Shown: positions 5,832 through 53,560, numbered from the stretch's first letter. The stretch: 64,000 nt of DNA from Promethearchaeota archaeon (GCA_048939625.1 JBHLPH010000008.1:23212-87211), one strand, 5' to 3'. A program made the numbers and translations. Notes: generated from the letters alone by a model not told the origin.

Positions 5832-7808
5832 TTGCATTTGGAAGCGGTAAACGTGAAAAAAACTACTCTACTCCTCGGGCTTTTCTGCACGGTGTTTTTA
5901 TTGGCTCTTCTGATTACCCCGGCTGCAGTCCATGAGGTTACAACACCTTTTCTTAAAGGTGATTTAGCTTCGACACCACTGATTGTAACAGCTCCCATCC
6001 AGCAACCTACTCCTCTTCTTATCCCACCAAGTCCATCAGGGGCATACGTAGCAATTGTTGTGGAAAATGGGCTTTGGGGCACCCCAGCAGTCCAGATTGC
6101 AGTGACCCAATACCGAACTGACCTAAATAATACAGGTTATAACACCATCTTGTATACAAGCACAATTCCAAATGCACCTACTCTACGTGGATTGCTCCAA
6201 ACTTGGTATACTTCGAATAATATCATTGGTGCTGTTCTGATTGGAAACTTACCTTACATACGCTTTGAACATGGACTTAACACCTCTGGAGTTAGCGGAG
6301 GTTATGATAGTTTTCCAGCCAGCACTCCTTTCATCTGTGACTTATATTACATGGACTTAGATGGTAGCTGGTATGATACTGACACAAACAGTGTATATGA
6401 TAGACATAATGCTAGTGCAGGCTATGATATCTTTCCAGAAATCTATGTGGGGCGATTAGATGCAAGCACAAGAACATATGGTGGACAAACCAATGCAAAT
6501 GATATCATAATGCTTCTCAACAGAATTCATTCATATCGAACGGGTTCTGTTGCACGGACTCACCGCGCTTTAACCTATATAGATGATGATTGGCAAGCAT
6601 GGGCTAATGGAACATATGATGTTTGGCCTGCATGGTTTAACAATGCTTATTCTAATCACACAGACATTCATACTCCGGGAACTTGGACAAATGCTACTGA
6701 TTGGCTATCGTATAGGTTAAACCAGGATTATGAATGGGTACATCTTTGTGCACACAGTACACCAACTTATCATGCTTTTGGCAAAACAGGTGGTCCAAGT
6801 GAAGGCACTGTTACTGCTGCACAGATACACAGTCAGGTTCCCACATTTAATTTCTACAACCTCTTTTCATGCTCGGGATCAAATTGGTTAAGTACTGATT
6901 GCCTAGCAACCACATATCTGTTCTCTGGTAGTCACTCTCTTGCAGTCATTGGATCTACAAAGACTGGAGGAATGCTTGGAGGCAATCACTTCTATGACCC
7001 TATTGGGCAAAATGAAACGATTGGTCAAGCTCTCAAAAATTGGTTCACGGGGATTAAAAGCTATACCTATTATTACCTTGAATGGTTTTACGGAATGTGT
7101 ATTCTGGGTGATCCTTTTCTTACTACACATTACGATATCACGGCTTTGGCACCAACAATAACCTCGTCTACCCATCCTGATCCAACAGCCTGGTCTACCA
7201 ATATCCTACCTCAATTCAACTGGACAATCCCAGCTGATGTAAATGGGATCGCTGGATACTACTATATTCTCGATCAAAATCCAACCACAATACCTACTGC
7301 GAGCACTGGAACTTATACAACAGTTAACGGCACGGCTATTTCTACACCATTATCTGATTCCACTTGGTTTTTCCATGTGGTCACAAAAGATACAGTTGGG
7401 AATATCGGTTCTGAAGCAGCACATTACCAAATTAATATTGATTCAACTAATCCGATTGTAATAATAAATTCGCCTATTGATGGTGCAACTGTTTTATCGG
7501 AATTTATAATTTCTTGGTCTGTAACTGAAAACGGTTCAGGTTATAGTTCGGCAAATATCTATGTAAATGGATCAATCAGAACAACAGTCAATGCACCCCA
7601 AATGAACACAACCATCACTAATTTAGCTCTAGGTACTTATTCCATTAATGTCACAGTCTTTGATTTATCGGGATTCCAAGGCTCTCAGCAAATCACAGTT
7701 ACTGTAATAACCCCACCAGTAATCCCCGGATTTCCCGTTGGAGCAATTATACTCGGAGTTACTTTCGCAATTAGTTTCGGGATAATTAAAAGAGGACGAA
7801 AACGTTAG
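5832..7808 (+). CDS. Secreted peptidase C25 (gingipain-like) protein with Ig-like domains and IPGF-type C-terminal sorting signal
   Basis: Signal peptide; LIG, DLYYMDLDG, PEIYVGR, AHS (His), FSC (Cys), LGDP; ends IPGF + TM + KRGRKR. Start may be GTG 5853. Confidence 0.75.
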   Translation: MHLEAVNVKKTTLLLGLFCTVFLLALLITPAAVHEVTTPFLKGDLASTPLIVTAPIQQPTPLLIPPSPSGAYVAIVVENGLWGTPAVQIAVTQYRTDLNNTGYNTILYTSTIPNAPTLRGLLQTWYTSNNIIGAVLIGNLPYIRFEHGLNTSGVSGGYDSFPASTPFICDLYYMDLDGSWYDTDTNSVYDRHNASAGYDIFPEIYVGRLDASTRTYGGQTNANDIIMLLNRIHSYRTGSVARTHRALTYIDDDWQAWANGTYDVWPAWFNNAYSNHTDIHTPGTWTNATDWLSYRLNQDYEWVHLCAHSTPTYHAFGKTGGPSEGTVTAAQIHSQVPTFNFYNLFSCSGSNWLSTDCLATTYLFSGSHSLAVIGSTKTGGMLGGNHFYDPIGQNETIGQALKNWFTGIKSYTYYYLEWFYGMCILGDPFLTTHYDITALAPTITSSTHPDPTAWSTNILPQFNWTIPADVNGIAGYYYILDQNPTTIPTASTGTYTTVNGTAISTPLSDSTWFFHVVTKDTVGNIGSEAAHYQINIDSTNPIVIINSPIDGATVLSEFIISWSVTENGSGYSSANIYVNGSIRTTVNAPQMNTTITNLALGTYSINVTVFDLSGFQGSQQITVTVITPPVIPGFPVGAIILGVTFAISFGIIKRGRKR

Positions 7809-7856
7809 CTAAAACAATCTGCACGCTTCTAGCAGCGTCTATTTCTCTTACTGGGC

Positions 7857-8636
7857 CTATTGACTATTGAGGATGTTTTCACATTTCTTGAAGAGCTGAT
7901 CAATGCTCTGAGAAAATAGGTGGCTTGGACTTACTTGAACCAAGATTTGTCGGCTTCCGAGCTCTATAAGTCGTGTAAAGAGTGGGACAACCGCTGCCAC
8001 TTCAAATCCGTATTCTTGCTCGATATCTTTTTTGACCTCAGCATGGTCGTAGATGCCAGGAGCCTTGTTACAGACGATATAGGTAGAGGGTACACCTAGT
8101 TTCTTAGCGAGGGCTAATGTGATAGCAGTTCCCAGGAAGTCTTGTTGGTCTAATCGCATGATAACAAACAGCAAGTCGGTTGTCGCCATCGAAAGTAGGG
8201 TTTCTTGGTCCAGCCCAGGGTGTGTATCAATGAAGAGATAGTCTAGGCTTTTGGCTTTGATAATTTGTTTGAATCCTTGGCGAAGAGCAGAAACCTCATA
8301 TCCTTCCCGAATGATGGTTGAAATATCGTCAGCGTTTAAGCTTGCTGGAATAACATGTAAACTACCAGAGCGTAATTTCATGGCTTTAGTGTGGTCGATG
8401 GTAGCTTTTTCGATGTTACATTTCTTACGCAAATAATCGTTCAGGGTATATTTGAATCGTTTTCCGCCGAGGCCAAATAAGACGTGTAACCCAGGACTTT
8501 GAATATCTGTATCAATGACACCGACATTCCGGTCTTTCATCGCTGCATACATGGCAAGATTTGCAGTCAAGTTACTCTTTCCCGTACCTCCACGGAAACT
8601 ATGAACTGTTACGATTTTTCCCATTAGATTATCCAC
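7857..8636 (-). CDS. MinD/ParA-family ATPase
   Basis: Deviant Walker A HSFRGGTGKS, DTDIQSPG, IDTHPG, NK motif; likely start ATG 8624. Confidence 0.92.
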   Translation of the reverse strand: MDNLMGKIVTVHSFRGGTGKSNLTANLAMYAAMKDRNVGVIDTDIQSPGLHVLFGLGGKRFKYTLNDYLRKKCNIEKATIDHTKAMKLRSGSLHVIPASLNADDISTIIREGYEVSALRQGFKQIIKAKSLDYLFIDTHPGLDQETLLSMATTDLLFVIMRLDQQDFLGTAITLALAKKLGVPSTYIVCNKAPGIYDHAEVKKDIEQEYGFEVAAVVPLFTRLIELGSRQILVQVSPSHLFSQSIDQLFKKCENILNSQ

Positions 8637-8719
8637 CTAGATATGAACACATGGTTTTTTGATATCCAGAGTAAGCCTGGCATTTCGAGGTACAAGTTCA
8701 GTATTATTAAACCATTGGT

Positions 8720-10000
8720 TTAAGTCAACCACTCTACGTTATCGCCTAGTTTTCGCAATACTATGATGAGCTTCTCTTCATCGACTCCAACTCGCTGGGC
8801 AATATCCCCTGTGGTATTATTTCCATCACAGTATGATTTAGCATCTTCAAGGATTTTATACTCATCACTTGTTAACCCTACGGTTTCAAGATAGGCTAGG
8901 AATCGTCGGTCACTGGAAACTAATTTTGGATAAAATTGGACACGGCGAATATACCCGCGCGAGGATAAGTAACTAAGAATTTCTGAAAGTTGACGCCCAT
9001 GAACGCCCGTTCGGGTTCGAATGTCCTCAACAGTAGAAATGCCATCAATTGCTTGGAGAACATCACGTCCAGGATTTCCAAAAAGGTTATCAAACTCCCG
9101 CGCTTGCCCGGTACTCTCTGCAAACAGAGTGCTTTCCATCATGGGATTGGAGGTAAATACATCAAACTCGGAGAACGTCTCCGTTCCCCTTGTTTTAGGT
9201 TGCACTTTAACCATGCTAGAAGAGTCGATGTTAGCTAGACCATATACAAGAGGTGCAATAATCTCTGCACAGCGACCCACCTTCATATCTTCTCGGATAA
9301 TGGCAAGGAAAACGAAATCTGGCTTTACTTGATGTAAAAAGAGTTTGGTATCTTCTTCCAGGGTTGTCTGGGTTACAGCAAAATAACTTGGGAGCTCCAT
9401 ACTCCGAGATTGCTGAATTTGACGCATCCCAACCTCGAGTTCATGTTGTTGTAATTTTGAGGAGATTACAAATCCATCATTTGAGAGAAATGCAGTACGT
9501 AATATTCCAGGTTTTCCCTCGATGATATTGAGAAGTTCTTCTACTTTTTGCAATCCTTCAGGAGGAAGAATTGCGGTGGGATAACGCTGTTGAATTACAG
9601 GCAATTTATCATATTTACCAAGAATTTCGATCACATAATCACGAAAACCTACAAACAAATGAGACGAGATAACCGCTTTCTTCAAAACTTCATTGAACTG
9701 CTTTTGAAAGGCTTGAGCAATTTCTTTGATGATTACTCGGTAGATGTTTTCGTCATCATCCTGCCCTATGACAATAATGAAAAGTAGGTCCGCCTGGCTT
9801 TCGTAGACGAATTTATTCTCAGCGAAGGTGACCACCTGAATCTTCCCTTCCCCAATCTCTTCTGCAAAGCCTGCTTGAGCAGAAAGAAATCCTGCCACAA
9901 GGGCATCTAATTTAGGAGCCCCATCTGGGGCGAAATTGAATAAAGGCATACCACCCTTTCGGAGCACAATAATTTCCTTCACTGGCAATTGGGTCACCAA
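8720..10000 (-). CDS. Longin + roadblock + tandem winged-helix protein (NPRL2-like architecture)
   Basis: N-terminus IIVLRKGGMPLF..LVAGFLSA..FAEEI (Asgard longin pattern); middle PGILRTAFLSNDGFVISS (roadblock pattern); two C-terminal DG-x(2-3)-T..DI wH-like repeats. Confidence 0.7.
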   Translation of the reverse strand: MVTQLPVKEIIVLRKGGMPLFNFAPDGAPKLDALVAGFLSAQAGFAEEIGEGKIQVVTFAENKFVYESQADLLFIIVIGQDDDENIYRVIIKEIAQAFQKQFNEVLKKAVISSHLFVGFRDYVIEILGKYDKLPVIQQRYPTAILPPEGLQKVEELLNIIEGKPGILRTAFLSNDGFVISSKLQQHELEVGMRQIQQSRSMELPSYFAVTQTTLEEDTKLFLHQVKPDFVFLAIIREDMKVGRCAEIIAPLVYGLANIDSSSMVKVQPKTRGTETFSEFDVFTSNPMMESTLFAESTGQAREFDNLFGNPGRDVLQAIDGISTVEDIRTRTGVHGRQLSEILSYLSSRGYIRRVQFYPKLVSSDRRFLAYLETVGLTSDEYKILEDAKSYCDGNNTTGDIAQRVGVDEEKLIIVLRKLGDNVEWLT

Positions 10001-10098
10001 GACTTGACCAGTACTAAAACCTCGTATAGATTAACCTTTGTGTTATGAAAAACTTCAATCGCGACAAATATTGAAACGCTTATAATCCCAACATTCTA

Positions 10099-11610
10099 TT
10101 GTTCAGACCAGATATTTTGGTACCAGCGGAGACAAATTCCATGAAAATCGACCGAAATTGGGTTACCGCAACAATCCTTGCCATCCCACTAGCTTGGGTA
10201 ATTGCTTTTCTCCTATTTCTACGTCCAATCATTCCACTGGACTTTACAAATATTCTAGTGTTATCACTCAGCTTAATATTCGGGTTAATTCTCGGGGGAA
10301 TTCTTGCTGATAAACTTCGCAAACATTCGCTGATTCTTGTTTTAAATGAAATGTTGATACTTGCAATTGGTATCGTGCAATGGATTTTTCCATTAAGTTT
10401 TTGGCAAACATTCACAGGTCTTTTGTTTCTCGCTGTGCTCATCTTCTTACTTGGTTACGTATTAGTTTTGTTAACGATTTTTCTAAACCAACTGGTTTCC
10501 AGTGTACATCGTGGTCATATCGTTGGGATAGTTACTGTCATCACAGTTCTTCTAGCAGCATTTTTTTCTATCTTTTGGCAATTCCCTGTGTCTACATCAT
10601 TTGTTCCAGCAATGACGGCAGGACTGATTCTCCTCATTCTCATTATAACCTTTCTCGTTCGACCTTGGAAAGAAGAATTGCAAATCTATATGGTTCCAGG
10701 CTTCATTCGACATTACGCAATTTGGTGGGGCATCTATCTAGCAGCCTATGGTCTCTATGTATGGGCCACACCAGTTGATCTTCGCTTCATTTACGTAAGT
10801 CTGTTTAGCAATTTAATGCCTTTTCCAACCGAACTGATTTTAGTTGGACTCAGTGGCGCCATTTTTGTCTTCGCATTTCTTCCTGATAAATTGGGTCGAA
10901 AACTGGTCTTTAACATTGCAACCCTCCTTCTTGGTCTATTGTGTATTTTTGGAGGAGCCCAATTAGACGAAACTATAGGCGTAATTGTTTCTCTAGTACT
11001 AACAATTTTAGAAGCATTTGTAATCGCCTTCATTATTGGTGTTGGGGCATGGCTAGTATGGGCTGAAATTGGCGCTGTTCGCAAGAAGGGCAGGCGAGCT
11101 GCGTTTGGATGGATGTTGGTGGGAATCCTCGGAACAATCCTCTGGGTCATCACGATACTCCCCTCGCAAGCGGAACTTTCTCTCCTTGTTTATCCTATCG
11201 CCGCTTCACTTGTGTTGATTAGTATCTTTCCACTCACAAATGCCCGGGAAGTTGTTTGGAATGAAAGAGTCATTGAAGATATTGATATCAGTGTTGACAG
11301 TCGACAGGTGAGTCGGGCAATTCGAGACTTGGAAGTAGACACTTCACTGAAAAGCATCAAAGAACAGAAAGAGGCCGAGGTTACTGAACTAATGAAAATC
11401 CAGGGTCTCTCGAAGAAACAAGCTAAGGACCTACGGGATTTTGGGTATGAAACGCCCGAACTGATTACCCGAGCCGATGCTGAAACCCTTGCTCAGGCAT
11501 TATCAATCTCTACAAAGAAGGCACAACAGATTATTGATAATGCTAGGGCAATGAAGAAACAGACCAGAAAGCTAGGTACAAAACCGTCGAAAACGCGAAC
11601 AACTAAGTAA
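10099..11610 (+). CDS. MFS-like multipass membrane protein with C-terminal helix-hairpin-helix domain
   Basis: About 12 hydrophobic segments, motif-A-like GGILADKLRK and PDKLGRK; C-terminal LMKIQGLSKKQAKDLRDFGY..ISTKKAQQII. Likely start ATG 10141. Confidence 0.7.
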   Translation: MFRPDILVPAETNSMKIDRNWVTATILAIPLAWVIAFLLFLRPIIPLDFTNILVLSLSLIFGLILGGILADKLRKHSLILVLNEMLILAIGIVQWIFPLSFWQTFTGLLFLAVLIFLLGYVLVLLTIFLNQLVSSVHRGHIVGIVTVITVLLAAFFSIFWQFPVSTSFVPAMTAGLILLILIITFLVRPWKEELQIYMVPGFIRHYAIWWGIYLAAYGLYVWATPVDLRFIYVSLFSNLMPFPTELILVGLSGAIFVFAFLPDKLGRKLVFNIATLLLGLLCIFGGAQLDETIGVIVSLVLTILEAFVIAFIIGVGAWLVWAEIGAVRKKGRRAAFGWMLVGILGTILWVITILPSQAELSLLVYPIAASLVLISIFPLTNAREVVWNERVIEDIDISVDSRQVSRAIRDLEVDTSLKSIKEQKEAEVTELMKIQGLSKKQAKDLRDFGYETPELITRADAETLAQALSISTKKAQQIIDNARAMKKQTRKLGTKPSKTRTTK

Positions 11611-11660
11611 TGGAAGTCCAGAGGGTGTAACGAGGGGCAAAAAAAGTAAAATTAGGGGCC

Positions 11661-13334
11661 TTGGAGACGGTAATGCCCATGATGGTGAAAAGACGGAAAA
11701 AAACTAAAGGGAAACGCAAACGCTTAGGGCAATTTTATACACCTAACTGGGTCGTCGACTATATTATCCGTCATACGCTGGGCCCTGCCTTCACCCAGGA
11801 TCCAACCCGCCTTTTAGGAGAATTCACTGTTCTTGATCCAGCTTGTGGGGATGGAGCCTTTCTACTCGGGGCGCTTCGTTTCTTATCTGAAAAAGTGGAT
11901 TCCTACCCTGCTGCAAATCAGCGATTACTTCGCCGTAGTATAGTTGACAGTATCCACGGTATCGATATTGATGCAAAAGCGATTAAAGCCTGTCAAGAAC
12001 AATTAGAAAAAGCCAGCAAGACACTCTTAGGTTCACCAGCTGATTTCTCGCAGCGTGTACTCATTGGTAATAGCCTTATTCAAACTGACATGAATGCGAA
12101 AGAAATCTTTGGATCCACTCTGCAAAAACAGTATCCCGTCGATTGGCAGCGTGTCTACCCTTGGGTGATGCGTGATGCAGGGTTTGATGTAATCGTCGGA
12201 AACCCTCCCTTCCTTGGAATCAAAGCTATGGATCCTCAGATTAAGGAGTACATCCGCAGTCGCTATCGAACCGTCCACCAGCAATTTGATATTCTCATCC
12301 CTTTCATCGAACTAGGTTTAACATTACTTCGACCAGGGGGTCGCCTCGGTTTCATCGTCAGCAATAAAGTACTCGCAGCAGATTACGGAAGCCTTCTCCG
12401 AAAGTCCCTTGTCAATAGCTATGTCATTGAACGGATGGTTGACATCTCCCATCTAAATATCTTCGAAGATGCTGCAACCTACCCCCATATTATCATCATC
12501 CGAAAACCAAAATCTCCAGAAGACGTCAAGCACAATAAGATCCATATCCCCACACCACCAACTGACCCAAACGATATGGCATCAGAACCTGTTAAAGTCA
12601 ATCAAGTCCCTCAACACTACTACACTACACTTCCTAATACCATCCTAGCTCCAGCACTAACCGAAAAGAAATTCTCTATACTTCGGAAACTCATCCACAA
12701 CACTATTCCCTTGGGTCAGGCGTGCACAATTCGCTGTGGAATCGCTAAAACTGGTTTTACTAAACAACTCCTTTCAGTCTCTGCCTATAAAGAACTCAGT
12801 CAAACCAGACAACAAAAAACTCTACCTTTTCTAAATGCGGGAGATGTTCGTCGGTATTACTTACGCCGCAAGAAATTTCTCTCTTACACGCCCAAATTAT
12901 CCACCCTTGATCAATGGCGAGATTTCGAAGAACCTAAACTTGTGATTGCAGGAATGGCAAAATGCCTACGAGTCGCGTTAGATCAAACCGGACATGCCCT
13001 GGGTCGCGTCTATTACATCACCCAAACACGTGCACCCTACAATCCCTATTTCATGCTAGGATTACTCAATTCGCGACTCATCAATGCCTACTTCTCCTTG
13101 CTCTTTGTTGCGACGCATCTTCGTAGCGGATACATTCGCTATAACGCCACCTATCTGGAGCAAATTCCCCTCGTAACGCCAACCCAACACCAGGAAGAAC
13201 AATTAGCTGACCTCACCAAGCTAGTTGTTCAAAACCCCAAATACCTCACAAAGGGGCTAGACCACGAAATCGATGATGTGGTCAATAACTTGTATGGCTT
13301 AAACGCTGACGAGGTTTCTTTGTTAGAAGAATAG
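11661..13334 (+). CDS. N6-adenine DNA methyltransferase (TaqI/Eco57I-like, gamma order), solitary
   Basis: GQFYTP, VLDPACGDGAFL, GIDID, VGNPPF, C-terminal LLNSRL TRD-like region. Confidence 0.9.
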   Translation: METVMPMMVKRRKKTKGKRKRLGQFYTPNWVVDYIIRHTLGPAFTQDPTRLLGEFTVLDPACGDGAFLLGALRFLSEKVDSYPAANQRLLRRSIVDSIHGIDIDAKAIKACQEQLEKASKTLLGSPADFSQRVLIGNSLIQTDMNAKEIFGSTLQKQYPVDWQRVYPWVMRDAGFDVIVGNPPFLGIKAMDPQIKEYIRSRYRTVHQQFDILIPFIELGLTLLRPGGRLGFIVSNKVLAADYGSLLRKSLVNSYVIERMVDISHLNIFEDAATYPHIIIIRKPKSPEDVKHNKIHIPTPPTDPNDMASEPVKVNQVPQHYYTTLPNTILAPALTEKKFSILRKLIHNTIPLGQACTIRCGIAKTGFTKQLLSVSAYKELSQTRQQKTLPFLNAGDVRRYYLRRKKFLSYTPKLSTLDQWRDFEEPKLVIAGMAKCLRVALDQTGHALGRVYYITQTRAPYNPYFMLGLLNSRLINAYFSLLFVATHLRSGYIRYNATYLEQIPLVTPTQHQEEQLADLTKLVVQNPKYLTKGLDHEIDDVVNNLYGLNADEVSLLEE

Positions 13335-16811: not shown

Positions 16812-18020
16812 GTGTCAATATTGCCTTCAAAAGTCTATTTTGGATCCATCCAACACGGCCGAGACGCCCGATTCGCCTCCCTCGGAGCAAAACTCGAAAA
16901 ACTCCTTGAACACCTCGACTTTTCTACCATCGAGAAAAACGATAAAGTTGCCATCAAGATGCACTTGGGCTTTGCTGATGGCTATCAAACCGTCCCAGTC
17001 TTTTTCGTTCGCCGCGTCGTTAAAGCCGTCAAAGAAGCCGGCGGCTGGCCTTTCATCACAGACAATCCCACCGCAGTTTACAATGCTGCTGAAAGAGGAT
17101 ACACCCAAGAAACCTGTGGCTGTCCCCTCATCCCCGTCGCTGGCGTCAAAGACGGTTACACCAAAACAGTCAAAATTAATTTCAAAAAAGTCAAAGAACT
17201 AGAAATGGGTGGTGTCATCCATGATGCCGAAGTCCTCATAGACCTCACCCACGCTAAAGGTCATGCTAACTGCGGATATGGTGGTGCCATCAAAAACATC
17301 GCTCTTGGTGCTTATTCTGGTCCTAGTCGCTGGAACCGAATCCATGGGGTTGAAAACGTCGATCGCTGGTGGGACCCTGAGAAATCCTCACCCGAACATG
17401 CCCAACGACTTGTCGAAGCCTGCCCCTACAATGCCCTAAGCTACGACAAGGAAAAACACCAACTCAACATCGCGCGCTTCCAATGCCACTATGGCAACTG
17501 CACTGAATGCATCAAAGCCGACAAAGATGTTGGCAGTCTCAATCTCAAACCCGAACAATTCGAAGCCTTCCAAAAAATGATGGCTATTGCAGCTAAACAC
17601 GTCACCGATACCTTCGATGAAAACAAGCGTTTCTACATCAACGTCGCCATCGACATCACTCCGCATTGTGATTGCATGGGAATCATCCAACCAGCTGTAG
17701 TTCCACACATTGGTATACTAGCGAGTCGAGATATCGTGGCCATAGATCAAGCCACCCTTGATATGATAGCAGAAAAGGGATTGATCGAAAGCGAGATTCC
17801 CCTTTATTTCAAACATGTTAATCTTGATCCTGATGTTGATTTGCATCCATTTCAGCGGTTGTGGGGTCCATACAAGAATCCCTATAATGTCACCAAGCAT
17901 GGTGAATTGTTAGGAATGGGTCAACGTCAGTATAAGATTACTGAGGTGCTACCGGCAAAGAAGACTCTGACAATGAAACCACCGAAGCATGAATTCGAAC
18001 GAGCCCCTTCATTCTTCTAA
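16812..18020 (+). CDS. DUF362-family Fe-S protein with degenerate ferredoxin insert
   Basis: KVAIKMHLG, THAKGH..GGAIKNIALG, CPYNAL, CDC, ASRDIVAIDQA. Confidence 0.85.
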   Translation: MSILPSKVYFGSIQHGRDARFASLGAKLEKLLEHLDFSTIEKNDKVAIKMHLGFADGYQTVPVFFVRRVVKAVKEAGGWPFITDNPTAVYNAAERGYTQETCGCPLIPVAGVKDGYTKTVKINFKKVKELEMGGVIHDAEVLIDLTHAKGHANCGYGGAIKNIALGAYSGPSRWNRIHGVENVDRWWDPEKSSPEHAQRLVEACPYNALSYDKEKHQLNIARFQCHYGNCTECIKADKDVGSLNLKPEQFEAFQKMMAIAAKHVTDTFDENKRFYINVAIDITPHCDCMGIIQPAVVPHIGILASRDIVAIDQATLDMIAEKGLIESEIPLYFKHVNLDPDVDLHPFQRLWGPYKNPYNVTKHGELLGMGQRQYKITEVLPAKKTLTMKPPKHEFERAPSFF

Positions 18021-51749: not shown

Positions 51750-52628
51750 TTAGGGGCTCTCAATAACTTGTATTTCGTCGTCGCTTGTAGCTCCGAACCC
51801 GATTTCTTTTGCTCTAGCAATTTGTCCAAGTTCCCAGACTGGTAAGTTTATTTTATTTTTCGCATTATAACCTTGGAGGAGTCGGACGCCTTCGACGTCG
51901 ATGGAGACCATATCGTGGCTTGCTAAGATGAGATTTGGCGTTTCGATGTCACCAGAGGAGGGCCCTTTAGTCACAAAGACTTTTCGTGCGTCCATGACAA
52001 CTAGCGTTGGGTCAAAATAGGAAGCAAGGTCGGCGATCTTATATTCGAGGTGGCGCATATGCATTTTCAGACGGTCTTGACGTTTTATTAATCCCATAAG
52101 GACTTTCATGCTTGCAGTGAACTTCGCGAGAAAATGCGTCTTCAGACAGGGTGCAACTACGAGTCTTCCTAACTTCAATGCGGGTTCCCCGATATGACCA
52201 CTTTTTAGATATTTTCCCTTTGGGAATTCTTGCTTAATCCAGGGATGTTCATCAAGGGAAATGAAGTCTGCATTCAGATCCAAGGCAACGTTACAGAGTC
52301 CTATCTCTTCGCCGACATCTCGAGTGCATACACGTTGGGTTGAAGCATCCATGATTTGGAGTTTTCCGGCTCCCGCAGCAAGTAAAGCTTCACCGAGTGC
52401 TTGGATAAAGTCAGCATCGCTGGATGCTGGATAGGGATCTGCCGTGTTCATATTGGGCTTTATCGTTACCAAATCGCCTGGTTGGATAATGGAGTCGAAT
52501 CCACCGATAAGTTCTATTGCCTTCTTTATATCGGCGCGAAGATTAGTTGAGGCTTTAACCTTACTCACAAGGAACTTCCTTCTTTGGGGTTCCGTCGATT
52601 TTTCAGATTGGGATGCCATCGGACTCAC
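51750..52628 (-). CDS. DUF362 domain protein
   Basis: VTIKPN, LKTH, MKVLMG, ASHDMVSID. Confidence 0.88.
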   Translation of the reverse strand: MSPMASQSEKSTEPQRRKFLVSKVKASTNLRADIKKAIELIGGFDSIIQPGDLVTIKPNMNTADPYPASSDADFIQALGEALLAAGAGKLQIMDASTQRVCTRDVGEEIGLCNVALDLNADFISLDEHPWIKQEFPKGKYLKSGHIGEPALKLGRLVVAPCLKTHFLAKFTASMKVLMGLIKRQDRLKMHMRHLEYKIADLASYFDPTLVVMDARKVFVTKGPSSGDIETPNLILASHDMVSIDVEGVRLLQGYNAKNKINLPVWELGQIARAKEIGFGATSDDEIQVIESP

Positions 52629-52711: not shown

Positions 52712-53560
52712 TTAAGGGAGAAATTCGAGGGTATCGATCTCCATTTTCATCCAATCAATTGTTTTTTCCAAACTCAAACGGATAATATCTAATGCCTTCT
52801 CGCGGTCATTGGGGTCAATAGCTGTTAATCCAAAAGCTTTCACACCTAATAATCTCTGGACAAGACTCGGCTTTAAGGCTCCTGTAAGATCCTGCTTATT
52901 GGCGATAACGACTACTTCGCTGGTTAAACCTTGCTCTTTGAGAAAGTCTAAGATGTCTTTGCTCTGGATCACGTTTTCGAGTGTGGAGTCAGTAACTAAA
53001 AACACGATGCGACTCCGTGAGAAGAGCATCTTCCATAACTTACGGAATCGTTCCTGTCCAGCAAAATCCCAGACCAGGAGCTCGTAAGTCCCGATTCGAG
53101 CACCTTCCACTTTTTGGATGTCAATACCAATCGTGGGGATATACGTCTGCGGAATCGTGCCTCCATTCAGAAGGTGGAGCATAGTAGTTTTTCCTACCCC
53201 CCCATAGCCCAATAGGCTAATCTTCAGCTTCGTAGTCACATACCGGTCCAGTTTCTTCATAAATGCGTCAAATTCTTCTTCATAGCTAATAACACGACGA
53301 AACTCAAATGCCACCTTATCGAGTTTCTCTAACAAGGTAGTATCCTCGTCAACAGGTTCTGCGCACAGAATAACAACACCACGACCTAGAGGCTGTCCGA
53401 TGTATTTCGTAGATCCCCGTTCTTCAATCAGAACTGCCTGGTTGGCTTTAATCTGGGCTGCGAACTCCTTTACTTCTTGATGATCCACATCGATAATCCA
53501 AAACCGCTTCTGCACGACCATCGTGTCGCGTGCATCAATGATGAAGACATGGTGGATCAT
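52712..53560 (-). CDS. Ras-superfamily (Arf/Rab-like) small GTPase with N-terminal longin-like domain
   Basis: G1 GYGGVGKT, G2 PTIG, G3 WDFAGQ, G4 NKQD, G5 TAI; N-terminus MIHHVFIID. Confidence 0.9.
   Translation of the reverse strand: MIHHVFIIDARDTMVVQKRFWIIDVDHQEVKEFAAQIKANQAVLIEERGSTKYIGQPLGRGVVILCAEPVDEDTTLLEKLDKVAFEFRRVISYEEEFDAFMKKLDRYVTTKLKISLLGYGGVGKTTMLHLLNGGTIPQTYIPTIGIDIQKVEGARIGTYELLVWDFAGQERFRKLWKMLFSRSRIVFLVTDSTLENVIQSKDILDFLKEQGLTSEVVVIANKQDLTGALKPSLVQRLLGVKAFGLTAIDPNDREKALDIIRLSLEKTIDWMKMEIDTLEFLP

What the first reader, a model, noticed from the sequence alone, without database searches (positions are those of the whole stretch)
7857..10000. Candidate new switch module: MinD-like ATPase paired with a longin-roadblock-winged-helix protein
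Seen: the two genes are adjacent, co-oriented and 83 bp apart, flanked by oppositely oriented genes. The ATPase has Arg where the MinD signature Lys normally is (RGGTGKS) and no obvious MinE or ParB partner. Known: longin and roadblock domains are GAP/GEF platforms for small GTPases (MglB, Ragulator, GATOR1), not for SIMIBI ATPases. Inference: this could be a positioning or polarity system in which a eukaryote-like regulator controls a MinD-type NTPase.
Basis: partly seen in the sequence, partly recalled or inferred. Interest (0 to 1): 0.8.

Follow-up and report, generated by a model that had tools for sequence, protein, structure and literature searches.

The report
NPRL2/3-like scaffold paired with MinD-type ATPase
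In this Asgard archaeon, a protein built like the eukaryotic nutrient-signalling subunits NPRL2/NPRL3 sits just upstream of an unusual MinD/ParA-type ATPase; the pairing is old and stably inherited, so a fold known as a GTPase regulator probably serves an ATPase here, though no binding or activity has been measured.

Summary
Two co-oriented minus-strand genes encode a longin-roadblock-double winged-helix protein ("LRW", 8720-9988/10000) and a 255-aa MinD/ParA-class ATPase (7857-8624) with Arg at the signature-lysine position (RGGTGKS).

The pairing is not chance. The ATPase lies directly downstream of LRW in 69 of 72 assessable Asgard genomes from three families. In Thor-like genomes the two genes overlap or nearly abut. 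Both genes are single-copy and diverge at about the rate of prolyl-tRNA synthetase.

The LRW tail is structurally closest to the C-terminal domain of NPRL2/NPRL3. Thor-like genomes add a shorter longin-winged-helix paralogue. An MFS-like permease with a helix-hairpin-helix tail is a conserved divergent neighbour.

Complex prediction gave only weak support: 0.40, best control 0.02.

Both halves were already catalogued: NPRL2-like Thor proteins (Liu et al.) and Arg-variant "ConB2" ParA with wHTH partners (Li et al. preprint, which proposes immunity). This scan has also met the module on other genomes.

My reading is a housekeeping NTPase switch in which the NPRL2/3-like scaffold regulates or adapts the ATPase. 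The function is unproven. I class it as a new variant of a known kind.

The parts
7857..8624 (-). MinD/ParA-class (SIMIBI) ATPase, 255 aa from ATG 8624 (the ORF is open from GTG 8636). Motifs: Walker A HSFRGGTGKSN with Arg at the signature-lysine position, DTDIQSPG, Walker B FIDTHPG, and invariant Asn186.
   Evidence: Pfam ParA PF10609 at 61.7 bits, plus AAA_31 and CbiA, all above their cut-offs. NCBIfam MinD models fall far below cut-off. The motif is invariant in 118/118 close homologues and 93/93 fused relatives. Alignment A2. The nearest solved structures are archaeal MinD-1 1HYQ, Aquifex MinD and FleN.
8625..8719 (-). Intergenic spacer. A TATA-like TTTAATAA (8711-8704) lies just after the upstream stop codon. 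A CTCGAA block (8689-8684) lies about 22 nt further on. An SD-like AGGTGGA (8638-8632) precedes ATG 8624. There is no oligo-T terminator.
   Evidence: In an alignment of the spacer from 17 genomes of the same family, the first ~40 nt and the SD are conserved while the rest varies freely. The sequence was read directly. The sigma-70 and terminator scans are at chance level.
8720..9988 (-). LRW protein: longin, roadblock and tandem winged helices. It is 422 aa from TTG 9988; the ORF is open to TTG 10000 (426 aa). An SD-like GGTGA lies at 9998-9994.
   Evidence: ORF. Homologues start at MPVKE. AlphaFold2 model with pLDDT 80.8. The top whole-chain Foldseek hits are GATOR1 NPRL3/NPRL2, Fuzzy-Inturned, BLOC-3 and Mon1-Ccz1, at E 1e-9 to 1e-7.
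9602..9985 (-). Longin domain (aa 6-133, numbered from TTG 10000), with near-invariant G17-x-P19 before strand 2 and invariant K63.
   Evidence: VIA-align Z 15.2 to the VAMP7 longin domain, 14.9 to Sec22b and 13.3 to the SRX domain of SR-alpha. Pfam Clat_adaptor_s at 23.7 bits (cut-off 22.5). Fuz_longin_1 matches 14 of 30 family members. Conservation.
9215..9574 (-). Roadblock/LC7-type domain (aa 143-262).
   Evidence: Secondary-structure order alpha-beta-beta-alpha-beta-beta-beta-alpha. Z 13.5 to Thermus MglB, 13.2 to the RagC C-terminal roadblock, and 13.2 to an MK-D1 roadblock. Pfam Robl_LC7 is only 16.6 bits here, and matches 5 of 30 members at E<=0.01.
8723..9109 (-). C-terminal module (aa 298-426): a long helix plus two winged helices, joined by the invariant motif P-x5-D-x-R-F-x2-[YF]-L-E-x2-G. 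It has the NPRL2/NPRL3 C-terminal-domain type of fold.
   Evidence: A separate model of aa 265-426 has pLDDT 85.3. Its 15 best Foldseek hits are all NPRL2/NPRL3/Npr2/Npr3 chains (E 9e-5 to 5e-2); the next hit has E>0.1. An exhaustive VIA-align search ranked NPRL2 8fw5_B residues 229-379 first (Z 9.9, 127 aligned) and 8adl_S second (Z 9.6, 144 aligned); the next hit (Z 7.6) covers one winged helix only.
10099..11610 (+). Divergently transcribed polytopic membrane protein. It is MFS-like, with motif-A-like D-R-x-x-R and A-D-x-R-G-R-K loops in both halves, and has a cytoplasmic HhH_5 domain and a K/R-rich tail. It is a conserved neighbour of the module.
   Evidence: Pfam HHH_5 at 38.7 bits, aa 429-483. 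Alignment A4 gives the invariant motifs. The gene lies divergently upstream in 16 of 17 same-family loci and in 15 of 18 Thor-like loci.

Best explanation
This is the two-gene core of a vertically inherited, housekeeping-type NTPase switch found in one Asgard family and in Thor-like Asgard archaea.

The ATPase belongs to the Arg-variant (RGGTGKS / DxDxxSPG) clade of ParA/MinD ATPases. Like its relatives, it should form an ATP-dependent sandwich dimer, with the invariant Arg reaching across the interface in place of the signature Lys.

The upstream protein is its dedicated partner. It is an NPRL2/NPRL3-like scaffold (longin + inserted roadblock + NPRL-type double winged helix). I propose that it dimerises through its longin and roadblock sheets. 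In Thor-like genomes the dimer partner would be the shorter longin-winged-helix paralogue; here it would be itself or an unlinked paralogue. The scaffold would then bind the ATPase and set its nucleotide or dimer state, or couple that state to a target, much as MglB, Ragulator and GATOR1 do for small GTPases and as MinE, ParB and McdB do for ParA/MinD ATPases.

The divergently transcribed MFS-like permease with an HhH tail is the most likely membrane anchor, cargo or input.

What is shown: the gene linkage, the folds, the motifs and the conservation. What is inferred: the binding (only weakly predicted), the direction of regulation and the cellular output.
For: - Linkage. The ATPase lies directly downstream of LRW in 18/18 genomes of the window's family, in 1/1 of a second family and in 50/53 assessable Thor-like genomes (coordinates; tblastn; ORFs).
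- Coupling. In Thor-like loci the two genes lie from -11 to +6 nt apart, which implies translational coupling.
- Phyletic match. Full-length LRW occurs only in families f1, f30 and f31. The single-copy ATPase clade occurs in those same families plus a few Hel-like families. It is absent (at E<=1e-50) from 135 genomes of the largest family.
- Housekeeping-like evolution. Identity to the window within the genus is 83-95% for the ATPase, 70-93% for LRW and 74-90% for ProRS. To Thor-like genomes it is 52-53%, 29-33% and 47-49% respectively.
- Folds. Longin and roadblock domains, both established NTPase platforms, plus an NPRL2/3-type tail.
- Switch behaviour of the clade. 93/93 long relatives carrying the same RGGTGKS and DxDxxSPG motifs are fused to receiver + HisKA, cNMP-binding, dCache, PAS or kinase/FHA domains. 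The ATPase therefore behaves as a signal-controlled switch module.
- Exchangeable partners. Hel-like genomes pair the same ATPase with other partners: a TPR-like protein, a small helical protein and a long-helix wHTH, which is fused to the ATPase in P0309.
- Charge. LRW is acidic (median pI 5.3) and the ATPase basic (median pI 8.4).
- Complex prediction (2 ATPase + 2 ATP + LRW): weak support. The score was 0.40 (runs 0.40, 0.48, 0.30) against a best control of 0.02. The mark was reached by 58 of 80 solved complexes and 2 of 110 mismatched pairs. At 0.60 or under, however, it was reached by only 7 of those 80 and by both mismatches that passed. The runs agree in at least 70% of contacts, and the partner pLDDT is at least 73. 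My own alignments and the riding ATP differ from the calibration.
Against: - No binding, ATPase stimulation or expression data exist, and the complex score is in the weak band.
- In the window's family the genes are about 95 nt apart, with a conserved TATA-like box after the upstream stop. They may therefore be transcribed separately.
- Three Thor-like genomes have the two genes apart: G316 on another contig, G322 1.2 kb away and G312 3.4 kb away.
- Some genomes of one Thor-like genus keep only the short paralogue next to the ATPase. The roadblock-bearing form is therefore dispensable there.
- No invariant Arg was found in the LRW longin domain, and the GP motif of GAP longins reads G-x-P here. 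A GATOR1-like catalytic mechanism is therefore not indicated.
- The only published reading of this ATPase clade's archaeal wHTH systems is DNA-directed immunity.
Confidence: 0.45

Rival explanations
1. DNA-directed ParA-wHTH system, as proposed for the ConB2 assemblage. The winged helices of LRW would recognise DNA and the ATPase would polymerise on or coat it. The purpose would be either to contain invading elements (immunity) or to position or segregate DNA. The HhH tail of the membrane protein would tether DNA to the membrane.
For: - The ATPase carries both ConB2 marks: Arg for a Walker A Lys, and PG after DxD.
- The preprint describes mostly archaeal ParA-wHTH operons whose wHTH has a long N-terminal helix and is sometimes fused to a profilin-longin-like domain. 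LRW fits that description.
- P0309 is an ATPase-long helix-wHTH fusion at 53% identity.
- TrmB/MarR-type Pfam matches occur in 23 of 30 family members.
- The neighbouring membrane protein has an HhH_5 domain and a basic tail.
- A type II/IIG-like DNA methyltransferase gene lies next door at 11661-13334.
Against: - The pair is single-copy, nearly universal within its families, syntenic, and as conserved as ProRS. This is unlike defence genes.
- PADLOC gives only a weak P-loop hit for the ATPase and nothing for LRW.
- No centromere-like or iterated repeats occur at the locus.
- The winged helices are near neutral (median net charge +1 and -0.5), and LRW is acidic overall.
- The tail is structurally closest to the protein-binding NPRL2/3 C-terminal domain, not to a DNA-bound regulator.
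- No significant profile match links the LRW tail to the Hel-type wHTH.
Confidence: 0.25
2. Proto-GATOR1. The NPRL2/3-like protein(s) would act as a GAP or GEF platform for a Rag/Arf-like small GTPase encoded elsewhere, for example the Arf-like gene at 52712-53560 or the longin-GTPase fusions. The MinD-type ATPase would be only an assembly or localisation accessory.
For: - The whole-chain and tail folds are closest to NPRL3/NPRL2.
- Thor-like genomes carry a paralogue pair, as in the NPRL2-NPRL3 heterodimer.
- Liu et al. name an NPRL2-like family in Thor MAGs.
- The genome encodes several small GTPases with weak Gtr1/RagA-type matches, one of them in a 296-aa ORF that also has a longin match.
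Against: - No small GTPase gene is linked to the pair in any of about 50 loci inspected. The linked NTPase is always the ATPase.
- There is no invariant Arg in the LRW longin domain, and the motif reads G-x-P rather than GP.
- No DEPDC5-like partner was seen in the neighbourhoods.
- The Gtr1_RagA model also matches E. coli in the control, so those matches are unspecific.
Confidence: 0.12
3. The adjacency is functionally meaningless: two unrelated genes kept together by chance or by local synteny.
For: The spacer in this family contains its own promoter-like element. No expression data could be obtained.
Against: The adjacency survives between lineages whose LRW proteins share only about 30% identity and whose surrounding genes differ. 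In Thor-like genomes the genes overlap. Presence and absence of the two genes coincide across 400 genomes.
Confidence: 0.03

Closest known systems
NPRL2-NPRL3 (yeast Npr2-Npr3), core of GATOR1/SEACIT, and the 'NPRL2-like' Thorarchaeota family of Liu et al. (bioRxiv 10.1101/2020.10.19.343400)
   Same: Both have an N-terminal longin domain and a C-terminal tandem winged-helix module; that architecture is described by Levine et al., PMC3747258. The LRW tail's best structural matches in the whole PDB are NPRL2/NPRL3 tails. The best whole-chain Foldseek hits are NPRL3 chains. Thor-like genomes encode two adjacent paralogues, one short and one long, as in the eukaryotic heterodimer.
   Different: LRW has a complete roadblock domain inserted between the longin domain and the tail. 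There is no sequence-level membership: HTH_NPRL3 matches only 3 of 30 members and stays below its cut-off. No conserved Arg finger was identified. No DEPDC5 is present. The linked NTPase is a MinD/ParA-class ATPase, not a Rag GTPase. This window's family has a single adjacent gene rather than a pair.
ConB2 ParA assemblage and its 'ParA-wHTH system' (Li, Burroughs and Aravind, bioRxiv 10.64898/2026.10.19.760177)
   Same: Arg replaces a Walker A Lys, and a PG motif follows the DxD sensor. The systems are mostly archaeal. The ParA gene is coupled to a wHTH protein with a long N-terminal helix, sometimes fused to a profilin-longin-like domain.
   Different: The preprint proposes anti-invader immunity with a rapidly evolving wHTH. 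Here the pair is single-copy, vertically inherited and about as conserved as ProRS. The partner's tail is of the NPRL2/3 type. The pair is tied to an MFS-HhH membrane protein. I could not confirm that this exact operon is in their set, because no supplement was held.
MglA-MglB, Rag-Ragulator and SRX-SRbeta: longin/roadblock dimers as NTPase platforms
   Same: The longin and roadblock folds are the same (Z 13-15). In both cases the platform gene is genetically coupled to one NTPase.
   Different: Those platforms serve TRAFAC small GTPases. Here the partner is a SIMIBI deviant-Walker-A ATPase that dimerises on its own nucleotide.
MinD-MinE, ParA-ParB and McdA-McdB: two-component ParA/MinD systems
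   Same: Both consist of a small ParA/MinD-class ATPase with a dedicated, co-encoded partner protein. The nearest solved structures to this ATPase are MinD and FleN.
   Different: The signature Lys is Arg. The protein ends at about 250 aa with no evident C-terminal membrane-targeting helix. No centromere repeats are present. The partner is unrelated to MinE, ParB or McdB. The MinD equivalog models are not met.

Membership tests
ParA/MinD superfamily (SIMIBI, deviant Walker A) | Pfam ParA/CbiA/AAA_31 domain above the gathering score | tested here: met
   PF10609 61.7 bits (cut-off 27.1), PF13614 53.2 bits (27), PF01656 49.4 bits (25.4).
ParA/MinD superfamily (SIMIBI, deviant Walker A) | KGGxGK[ST] with the extra N-terminal (signature) lysine | tested here: not met
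   The motif reads RGGTGKS. The Arg is invariant in 118/118 near homologues and 93/93 fused homologues. HMMER aligns it to the K of MinD-1 KGGTGKT. The GK[ST] lysine is retained.
ParA/MinD superfamily (SIMIBI, deviant Walker A) | DxD sensor/switch I, Walker B Asp, and Asn of the degenerate [NT]KxD | tested here: met
   D38, D40, D133, T134, P136, G137 and N186 are invariant in alignment A2.
MinD proper | Reaches the NCBIfam MinD models (minD_arch, minD_bact) | tested here: not met
   63.3 bits against cut-off 201.75, and 57.4 bits against 212.9.
MinD proper | C-terminal amphipathic membrane-targeting helix; MinE or MinC partner | tested here: inconclusive
   The proteins end at 250-261 aa, directly after the last conserved helix. 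No helix prediction or membrane assay was done. MinE and MinC were not searched for.
ConB2 ParA assemblage / ParA-wHTH system (preprint 10.64898/2026.10.19.760177) | Arg in lieu of a Walker A Lys, and a PG motif downstream of the DxD sensor | tested here: met
   RGGTGKS and DTDIQSPG. The preprint's wording ('second lysine') leaves some doubt about which Lys it means. The clade-wide coupling of R with SPG fits its logo description.
ConB2 ParA assemblage / ParA-wHTH system (preprint 10.64898/2026.10.19.760177) | Adjacent wHTH protein with an elongated N-terminal helix, optionally fused to a profilin-longin-like domain | tested here: met
   The LRW tail has a 20-residue helix followed by a winged helix, with longin and roadblock domains N-terminal to it. 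Homology of this wHTH to the Hel-type wHTH was not shown.
ConB2 ParA assemblage / ParA-wHTH system (preprint 10.64898/2026.10.19.760177) | Defence-like behaviour: rapidly evolving sensor and patchy, mobile distribution | tested here: not met
   The pair is single-copy and present in 17-18/18 genomes of f1 and 68/89 of the Thor-like families. Its divergence tracks ProRS. PADLOC shows nothing specific.
ConB2 ParA assemblage / ParA-wHTH system (preprint 10.64898/2026.10.19.760177) | Phylogenetic placement inside the ConB2 clade | not testable with these tools
   No reference sequences or supplement were available.
NPRL2/NPRL3 (GATOR1/SEACIT) | N-terminal longin domain | tested here: met
   Z 15 to longin domains. 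Fuz_longin_1 matches 14 of 30 members, and Clat_adaptor_s is above its cut-off in this protein.
NPRL2/NPRL3 (GATOR1/SEACIT) | NPRL-type C-terminal tandem winged helix | tested here: met
   Met by fold only. The top 15 Foldseek hits are all NPRL2/3 chains, and the top two of 48,161 chains by VIA-align score Z 9.9 and 9.6. By sequence the result is inconclusive: HTH_NPRL3 matches 3 of 30 members, best E 0.002, below its cut-off.
NPRL2/NPRL3 (GATOR1/SEACIT) | Heterodimer of two paralogous subunits | tested here: inconclusive
   Thor-like loci carry an adjacent ~300-aa paralogue. This window has none adjacent. A 227-aa longin + one-winged-helix ORF elsewhere in the genome is a weak candidate. No dimer prediction was run.
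NPRL2/NPRL3 (GATOR1/SEACIT) | Catalytic Arg finger with adjacent GP motif in the longin domain (PMC12290439) | tested here: inconclusive
   LRW has near-invariant G17-x-P19 before strand 2, and no invariant Arg in aa 1-133; K63 is invariant. The structural equivalent of NPRL2 Arg78 was not mapped.
NPRL2/NPRL3 (GATOR1/SEACIT) | Acts on a Rag GTPase, together with DEPDC5 | not tested
   No Rag-like or DEPDC5-like gene is linked in the loci inspected.
Roadblock/LC7 (MglB type) | Roadblock fold | tested here: met
   Secondary-structure order. Z 13.5 to MglB 1J3W, rmsd 2.5, 116 residues aligned.
Roadblock/LC7 (MglB type) | Co-encoded MglA-like small GTPase | tested here: not met
   The neighbours are the ATPase, a secreted or anchored protein, and the MFS-HhH protein.
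ParABS-type partition cassette | Centromere-like repeat array next to the operon | tested here: not met
   Only chance-level two-copy repeats, and no tandem array, occur between 5000 and 13500.

The most novel reading that the evidence does not exclude
The pair, together with the short paralogue in Thor-like genomes and the divergent MFS-like permease, could be an archaeal forerunner of the GATOR1 scaffold. In this reading, an NPRL2/NPRL3-like longin/winged-helix dimer, docked on or informed by a transporter-like membrane protein, controls a dimerising MinD-type ATPase. That would mean the NPRL2/3 architecture arose as an ATPase regulator and was only later re-used for Rag GTPases in the eukaryotic nutrient-sensing pathway.
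Probability: 0.2. Interest if true: 0.85.

Novelty: new variant of a known kind. Interest (0 to 1): 0.55.

Why it matters
Longin and roadblock platforms, and the NPRL2/3 scaffold, are central to eukaryotic membrane-traffic and nutrient signalling. Asgard homologues have been hard to match to partners because they rarely sit in operons. Here an NPRL2/3-like protein is locked to one specific NTPase, a MinD/ParA-class ATPase, and to a permease-like membrane protein. This gives a concrete, testable partner set. If binding is confirmed, it would show that these "GTPase-regulator" folds also govern SIMIBI ATPases, and it would bear on how the GATOR1 scaffold originated. It also tests whether the Arg-variant ParA clade, recently proposed to be immune, has housekeeping members.

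Tried and rejected
- Expression. The look-up of sequencing runs (kind rna) listed no RNA holder for 7700-11700, so co-transcription could not be examined.
- Sequence search of LRW against PDB chains: nothing below E 0.27.
- Profile comparison of the LRW tail with the Hel-type long-helix wHTH (the P0309 tail and the L066 downstream ORF): probabilities 1-4%, so no homology was shown.
- PADLOC. The ATPase gave only a partial P-loop match to the candidate family PDC-M28B. LRW and the MFS-HhH protein gave nothing.
- Repeats. No centromere-like arrays were found.
- The bacterial-type promoter and terminator scan was at chance level and is not suited to archaea.
- Rosetta-stone search for an LRW-ATPase fusion. 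None was found among 96 long relatives of the ATPase. The fusions are to signalling domains, a wHTH or a glutaminase. P0395 (Aa_trans region joined to an ATPase lacking its P-loop) looks like a chimeric or mis-called ORF and was not used.
- The supplement of the ConB2 preprint is not held, so I could not check whether this operon is in their set.
- Only one complex job was available. LRW against the Arf-like GTPase at 52712, the LRW homodimer, and the short-long paralogue pair were therefore not tested.
- The Mrp/NBP35 reading suggested by the top Pfam name (NUBPL) was rejected. There is no CxxC motif, and only one invariant Cys.
Full report
**What is there.** On the minus strand lie two ORFs: 8720-10000 (426 aa) and 7857-8636 (259 aa). 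They sit between plus-strand genes at 5832-7808 and 10099-11610. Reading the sequence and comparing homologues places the likely starts elsewhere. The upstream gene probably starts at TTG 9988, with GGTGA five bases upstream and homologues starting MPVKE. The ATPase probably starts at ATG 8624, with AGGTGGA upstream and homologues starting MGKI. The spacer is therefore about 95 nt rather than 83.

**The ATPase.** The downstream protein matches ParA/CbiA/AAA_31 above the Pfam cut-offs. It falls far below the NCBIfam MinD models. Its nearest solved relatives are archaeal MinD-1, Aquifex MinD and FleN. It reads HSFRGGTGKSN, and HMMER aligns the Arg to the signature Lys of MinD-1.

**The upstream protein.** An AlphaFold2 model built on a 30-sequence alignment (pLDDT 80.8) shows four units:
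- a longin domain, aa 6-133 (Z about 15 to VAMP7, Sec22b and the SRX domain of SR-alpha)
- a roadblock domain, aa 143-262 (Z 13.5 to MglB, 13.2 to the RagC C-terminal domain)
- a long helix
- two winged helices (for the comparisons)

The best whole-chain Foldseek hits are NPRL3/NPRL2 of GATOR1, Fuzzy-Inturned, BLOC-3 and Mon1-Ccz1 (E 1e-9 to 1e-7).

I then folded the tail alone (aa 265-426, pLDDT 85.3). Its 15 best Foldseek hits are all NPRL2/NPRL3/Npr2/Npr3 chains, and the next hit has E above 0.1. An exhaustive comparison with 48,161 chains, independent of Foldseek, ranks NPRL2 residues 229-379 (Z 9.9) and a SEACIT Npr chain (Z 9.6) first. The next hit (Z 7.6) covers a single winged helix.

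Levine et al. (PMC3747258) describe NPRL2/3 as a longin domain plus repeated winged helices. The protein is therefore NPRL2/3-like with an inserted roadblock domain. At sequence level this is not membership. HTH_NPRL3 matches 3 of 30 members and stays below its cut-off, and Fuz_longin_1 matches 14 of 30. There is no PDB sequence match.

**Is the pairing real?** The evidence says yes.
- The family is small. A profile search of 1.84 billion representatives finds only 16 clusters below 1e-30.
- Among 400 Asgard genomes, full-length LRW occurs only in the window's own family (18/18), one single-genome family and a large Thor-like family.
- At E<=1e-50 the ATPase clade is single-copy. It occurs in those same families plus four Hel-like genomes, and in none of the 135 genomes of the largest family.
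- Putting the coordinates together with tblastn and ORF calls on fetched loci, the ATPase lies directly downstream of LRW in 69 of 72 assessable genomes.
- The exceptions are G316 (other contig), G322 (1.2 kb away) and G312 (3.4 kb away).
- In Thor-like loci the two genes lie from an 11-nt overlap to 6 nt apart.
- A contig labelled Thermoplasmata carries the same Thor-type cluster and is probably mis-binned.

**The module is larger than two genes.**
- Thor-like loci have a third gene directly upstream of LRW. It is a paralogue of about 300 aa with the longin domain and the double winged helix but no roadblock. It matches Fuz_longin_1 above the Pfam cut-off.
- Some genomes of one Thor-like genus keep only this short form next to the ATPase.
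- A polytopic membrane protein with a C-terminal HhH_5 domain is transcribed divergently from the first gene of the cluster. This holds in 16 of 17 loci of the window's family and in 15 of 18 Thor-like loci.
- Its alignment shows MFS motif-A-like loops in both halves (D-R-x-x-R and A-D-x-R-G-R-K) and a conserved HhH pair.
- In the window this gene is at 10099-11610.

**The ATPase clade.**
- All 118 close homologues carry S[FY]RGGTGKSN.
- Alignment A2 also shows invariant DTD..SPG, DTHPG and Asn186.
- A search for longer relatives found 96 proteins. Ninety-three of them contain the same RGGTGKS and DxDxxSPG motifs. They are fused to receiver + HisKA, cNMP-binding, dCache, PAS, kinase/FHA or glutaminase domains, mostly in cyanobacteria and Anaerolineae.
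- One archaeal-type relative at 53% identity (P0309) is fused to a long helix and a winged helix.
- In Hel-like genomes the same ATPase follows a TPR-like protein of about 520 aa and a small helical protein. In one locus it precedes a long-helix wHTH gene.
- The ATPase therefore looks like a conserved switch engine whose inputs and partners are exchangeable.
- The genome's second MinD-like gene has the canonical Lys.

**What is already known.**
- Liu et al. (bioRxiv 10.1101/2020.10.19.343400) report an NPRL2-like longin + C-terminal-domain family in most Thor MAGs. Their text does not mention an ATPase neighbour.
- Li, Burroughs and Aravind (bioRxiv 10.64898/2026.10.19.760177) define a ParA assemblage, ConB2, marked by Arg in place of a Walker A Lys and by a PG motif after the DxD sensor.
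- Within ConB2 they describe a mostly archaeal "ParA-wHTH system" whose wHTH has a long N-terminal helix and is sometimes fused to a profilin-longin-like domain. They propose that it coats invader DNA.
- The ATPase here has both sequence marks, and LRW fits their partner description. Their supplement was not available, so identity with their set is probable rather than shown.
- I found no paper that links the NPRL2-like family to this ATPase.
- Earlier follow-ups in this scan reached similar conclusions on other genomes. One of them gave me the lead to the ConB2 preprint, which I then read and tested against the sequence.

**Housekeeping or defence?** I compared divergence with prolyl-tRNA synthetase from the same window.

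| Comparison with the window | ProRS | ATPase | LRW |
|---|---|---|---|
| Same genus | 74-90% | 83-95% | 70-93% |
| Sister genus | 62-66% | 70-75% | 53-55% |
| Thor-like genomes | 47-49% | 52-53% | 29-33% |

The pair is single-copy, nearly universal in its families and syntenic. PADLOC gives only a partial P-loop hit, and there are no centromere-like repeats. The LRW winged helices are near neutral, LRW is acidic overall and the ATPase is basic. This pattern argues against a defence cassette in these lineages. It argues only mildly against DNA binding, which is not excluded. The HhH tail and a neighbouring DNA methyltransferase gene keep the DNA-directed reading alive.

**Do the two proteins bind?** One complex job (two ATPase chains, two ATP, one LRW, with my own alignments) gave weak support.
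- The score was 0.40 (runs 0.40, 0.48, 0.30) against a best control of 0.02.
- The mark was reached by 58 of 80 solved complexes and 2 of 110 mismatched pairs.
- At 0.60 or under, it was reached by only 7 of those 80 and by both mismatches that passed.
- The runs agree in at least 70% of contacts, and the partner pLDDT is at least 73.
- The job differs from the calibration through my alignments and the riding ATP.
- No interface was reported.

Given the prior from gene linkage I take this as modest support only.

**Transcription.** No RNA data could be found. In the window's family the spacer has a conserved TTTAATA box right after the upstream stop, a conserved CTCGAA about 22 nt further on, and a conserved SD; the rest varies. 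The ATPase may therefore have its own promoter here. The Thor-like overlaps imply co-translation there.

**Verdict.** This is a genuine, ancient functional pair and probably a switch module.

My best reading (confidence 0.45) is a housekeeping NTPase switch. In it, an NPRL2/3-like longin-roadblock scaffold binds and regulates or adapts an Arg-variant ParA/MinD ATPase, with the MFS-HhH protein as membrane partner.

The rivals are:
- a DNA-directed ParA-wHTH system (0.25)
- a proto-GATOR1 acting on an unlinked small GTPase (0.12)
- meaningless adjacency (0.03)

Noticed in passing
window 10099-11610 (+): A 503-aa polytopic membrane protein with MFS motif-A-like loops in both halves, a C-terminal HhH_5 domain and a K/R-rich tail. 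It is transcribed divergently from the pair. The arrangement is conserved in 16/17 same-family loci and 15/18 Thor-like loci, so it probably belongs to the system.
   Followed up: yes
L049-L067 (e.g. L056:5639-6547, L062:5838-6740); L002:725-1678: Thor-like genomes carry a ~300-aa paralogue (longin + double winged helix, no roadblock) directly upstream of the long form. This gives an NPRL2/NPRL3-like short/long pair. It shares the D-x-R-F-x2-[YF]-L-[DE]-x2-G linker motif with LRW.
   Followed up: partly
L044:1453-2136 (-) = G000 contig C78: The window's own genome has an unlinked 227-aa ORF with a longin domain (SGIPLYH motif, as in Thor-like LRW) and one winged helix, next to an Asp/Asn-tRNA synthetase-like gene. 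It is a weak candidate for the missing short paralogue (21% identity to P0171).
   Followed up: partly
L039:3089-5756; L065:6189-8361; L066:2411-5657: Hel-like Asgard genomes pair the same Arg-variant ATPase (about 50% identity) with a ~520-aa TPR-like protein and a 110-137-aa helical, Lys-rich protein upstream. In L066 a long-helix winged-helix gene lies downstream.
   Followed up: partly
proteins P0310-P0402: Bacterial relatives of the ATPase (40-48% identity; cyanobacteria, Anaerolineae) all keep RGGTGKS and DxDxxSPG. They are fused to receiver + HisKA, cNMP-binding, dCache, PAS, Ser/Thr kinase + FHA or glutaminase domains.
   Followed up: partly
L007:24-716 (-) = G000 contig C71, at the contig end: A second MinD-like gene in the same genome (28% identity) keeps the canonical signature Lys (HSFKGGTGKSN).
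   Followed up: no
window 11661-13334 (+): A 557-aa Eco57I/N6_Mtase-type DNA methyltransferase with a TaqI_C specificity domain, and no obvious nuclease partner in the adjacent ORFs. It lies next to the MFS-HhH gene.
   Followed up: no
window 52712-53560 (-) and 51750-52628 (-): An Arf/Roc-like small GTPase (G domain aa 102-242) with a ~100-aa N-terminal extension, followed by a DUF362 gene. DUF362 genes recur near the module: at window 16812-18020, and between the paralogues in L002.
   Followed up: no
L050:5596-6359 (G333); L063:6038-6664 (G368): In G333 the ATPase gene is split into two ORFs (frameshift or assembly error). In G368, a single-contig genome, the ATPase ORF is truncated (208 aa) and only the short paralogue is present. 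This may reflect decay of the module in some lineages.
   Followed up: no
L037, L038 (contig MUGD01000181 labelled Thermoplasmata archaeon M9B2D): A contig assigned to Thermoplasmata carries the complete Thor-type three-gene cluster and the same AFOR neighbour as a Thor-like contig (L001). It is probably mis-binned.
   Followed up: no
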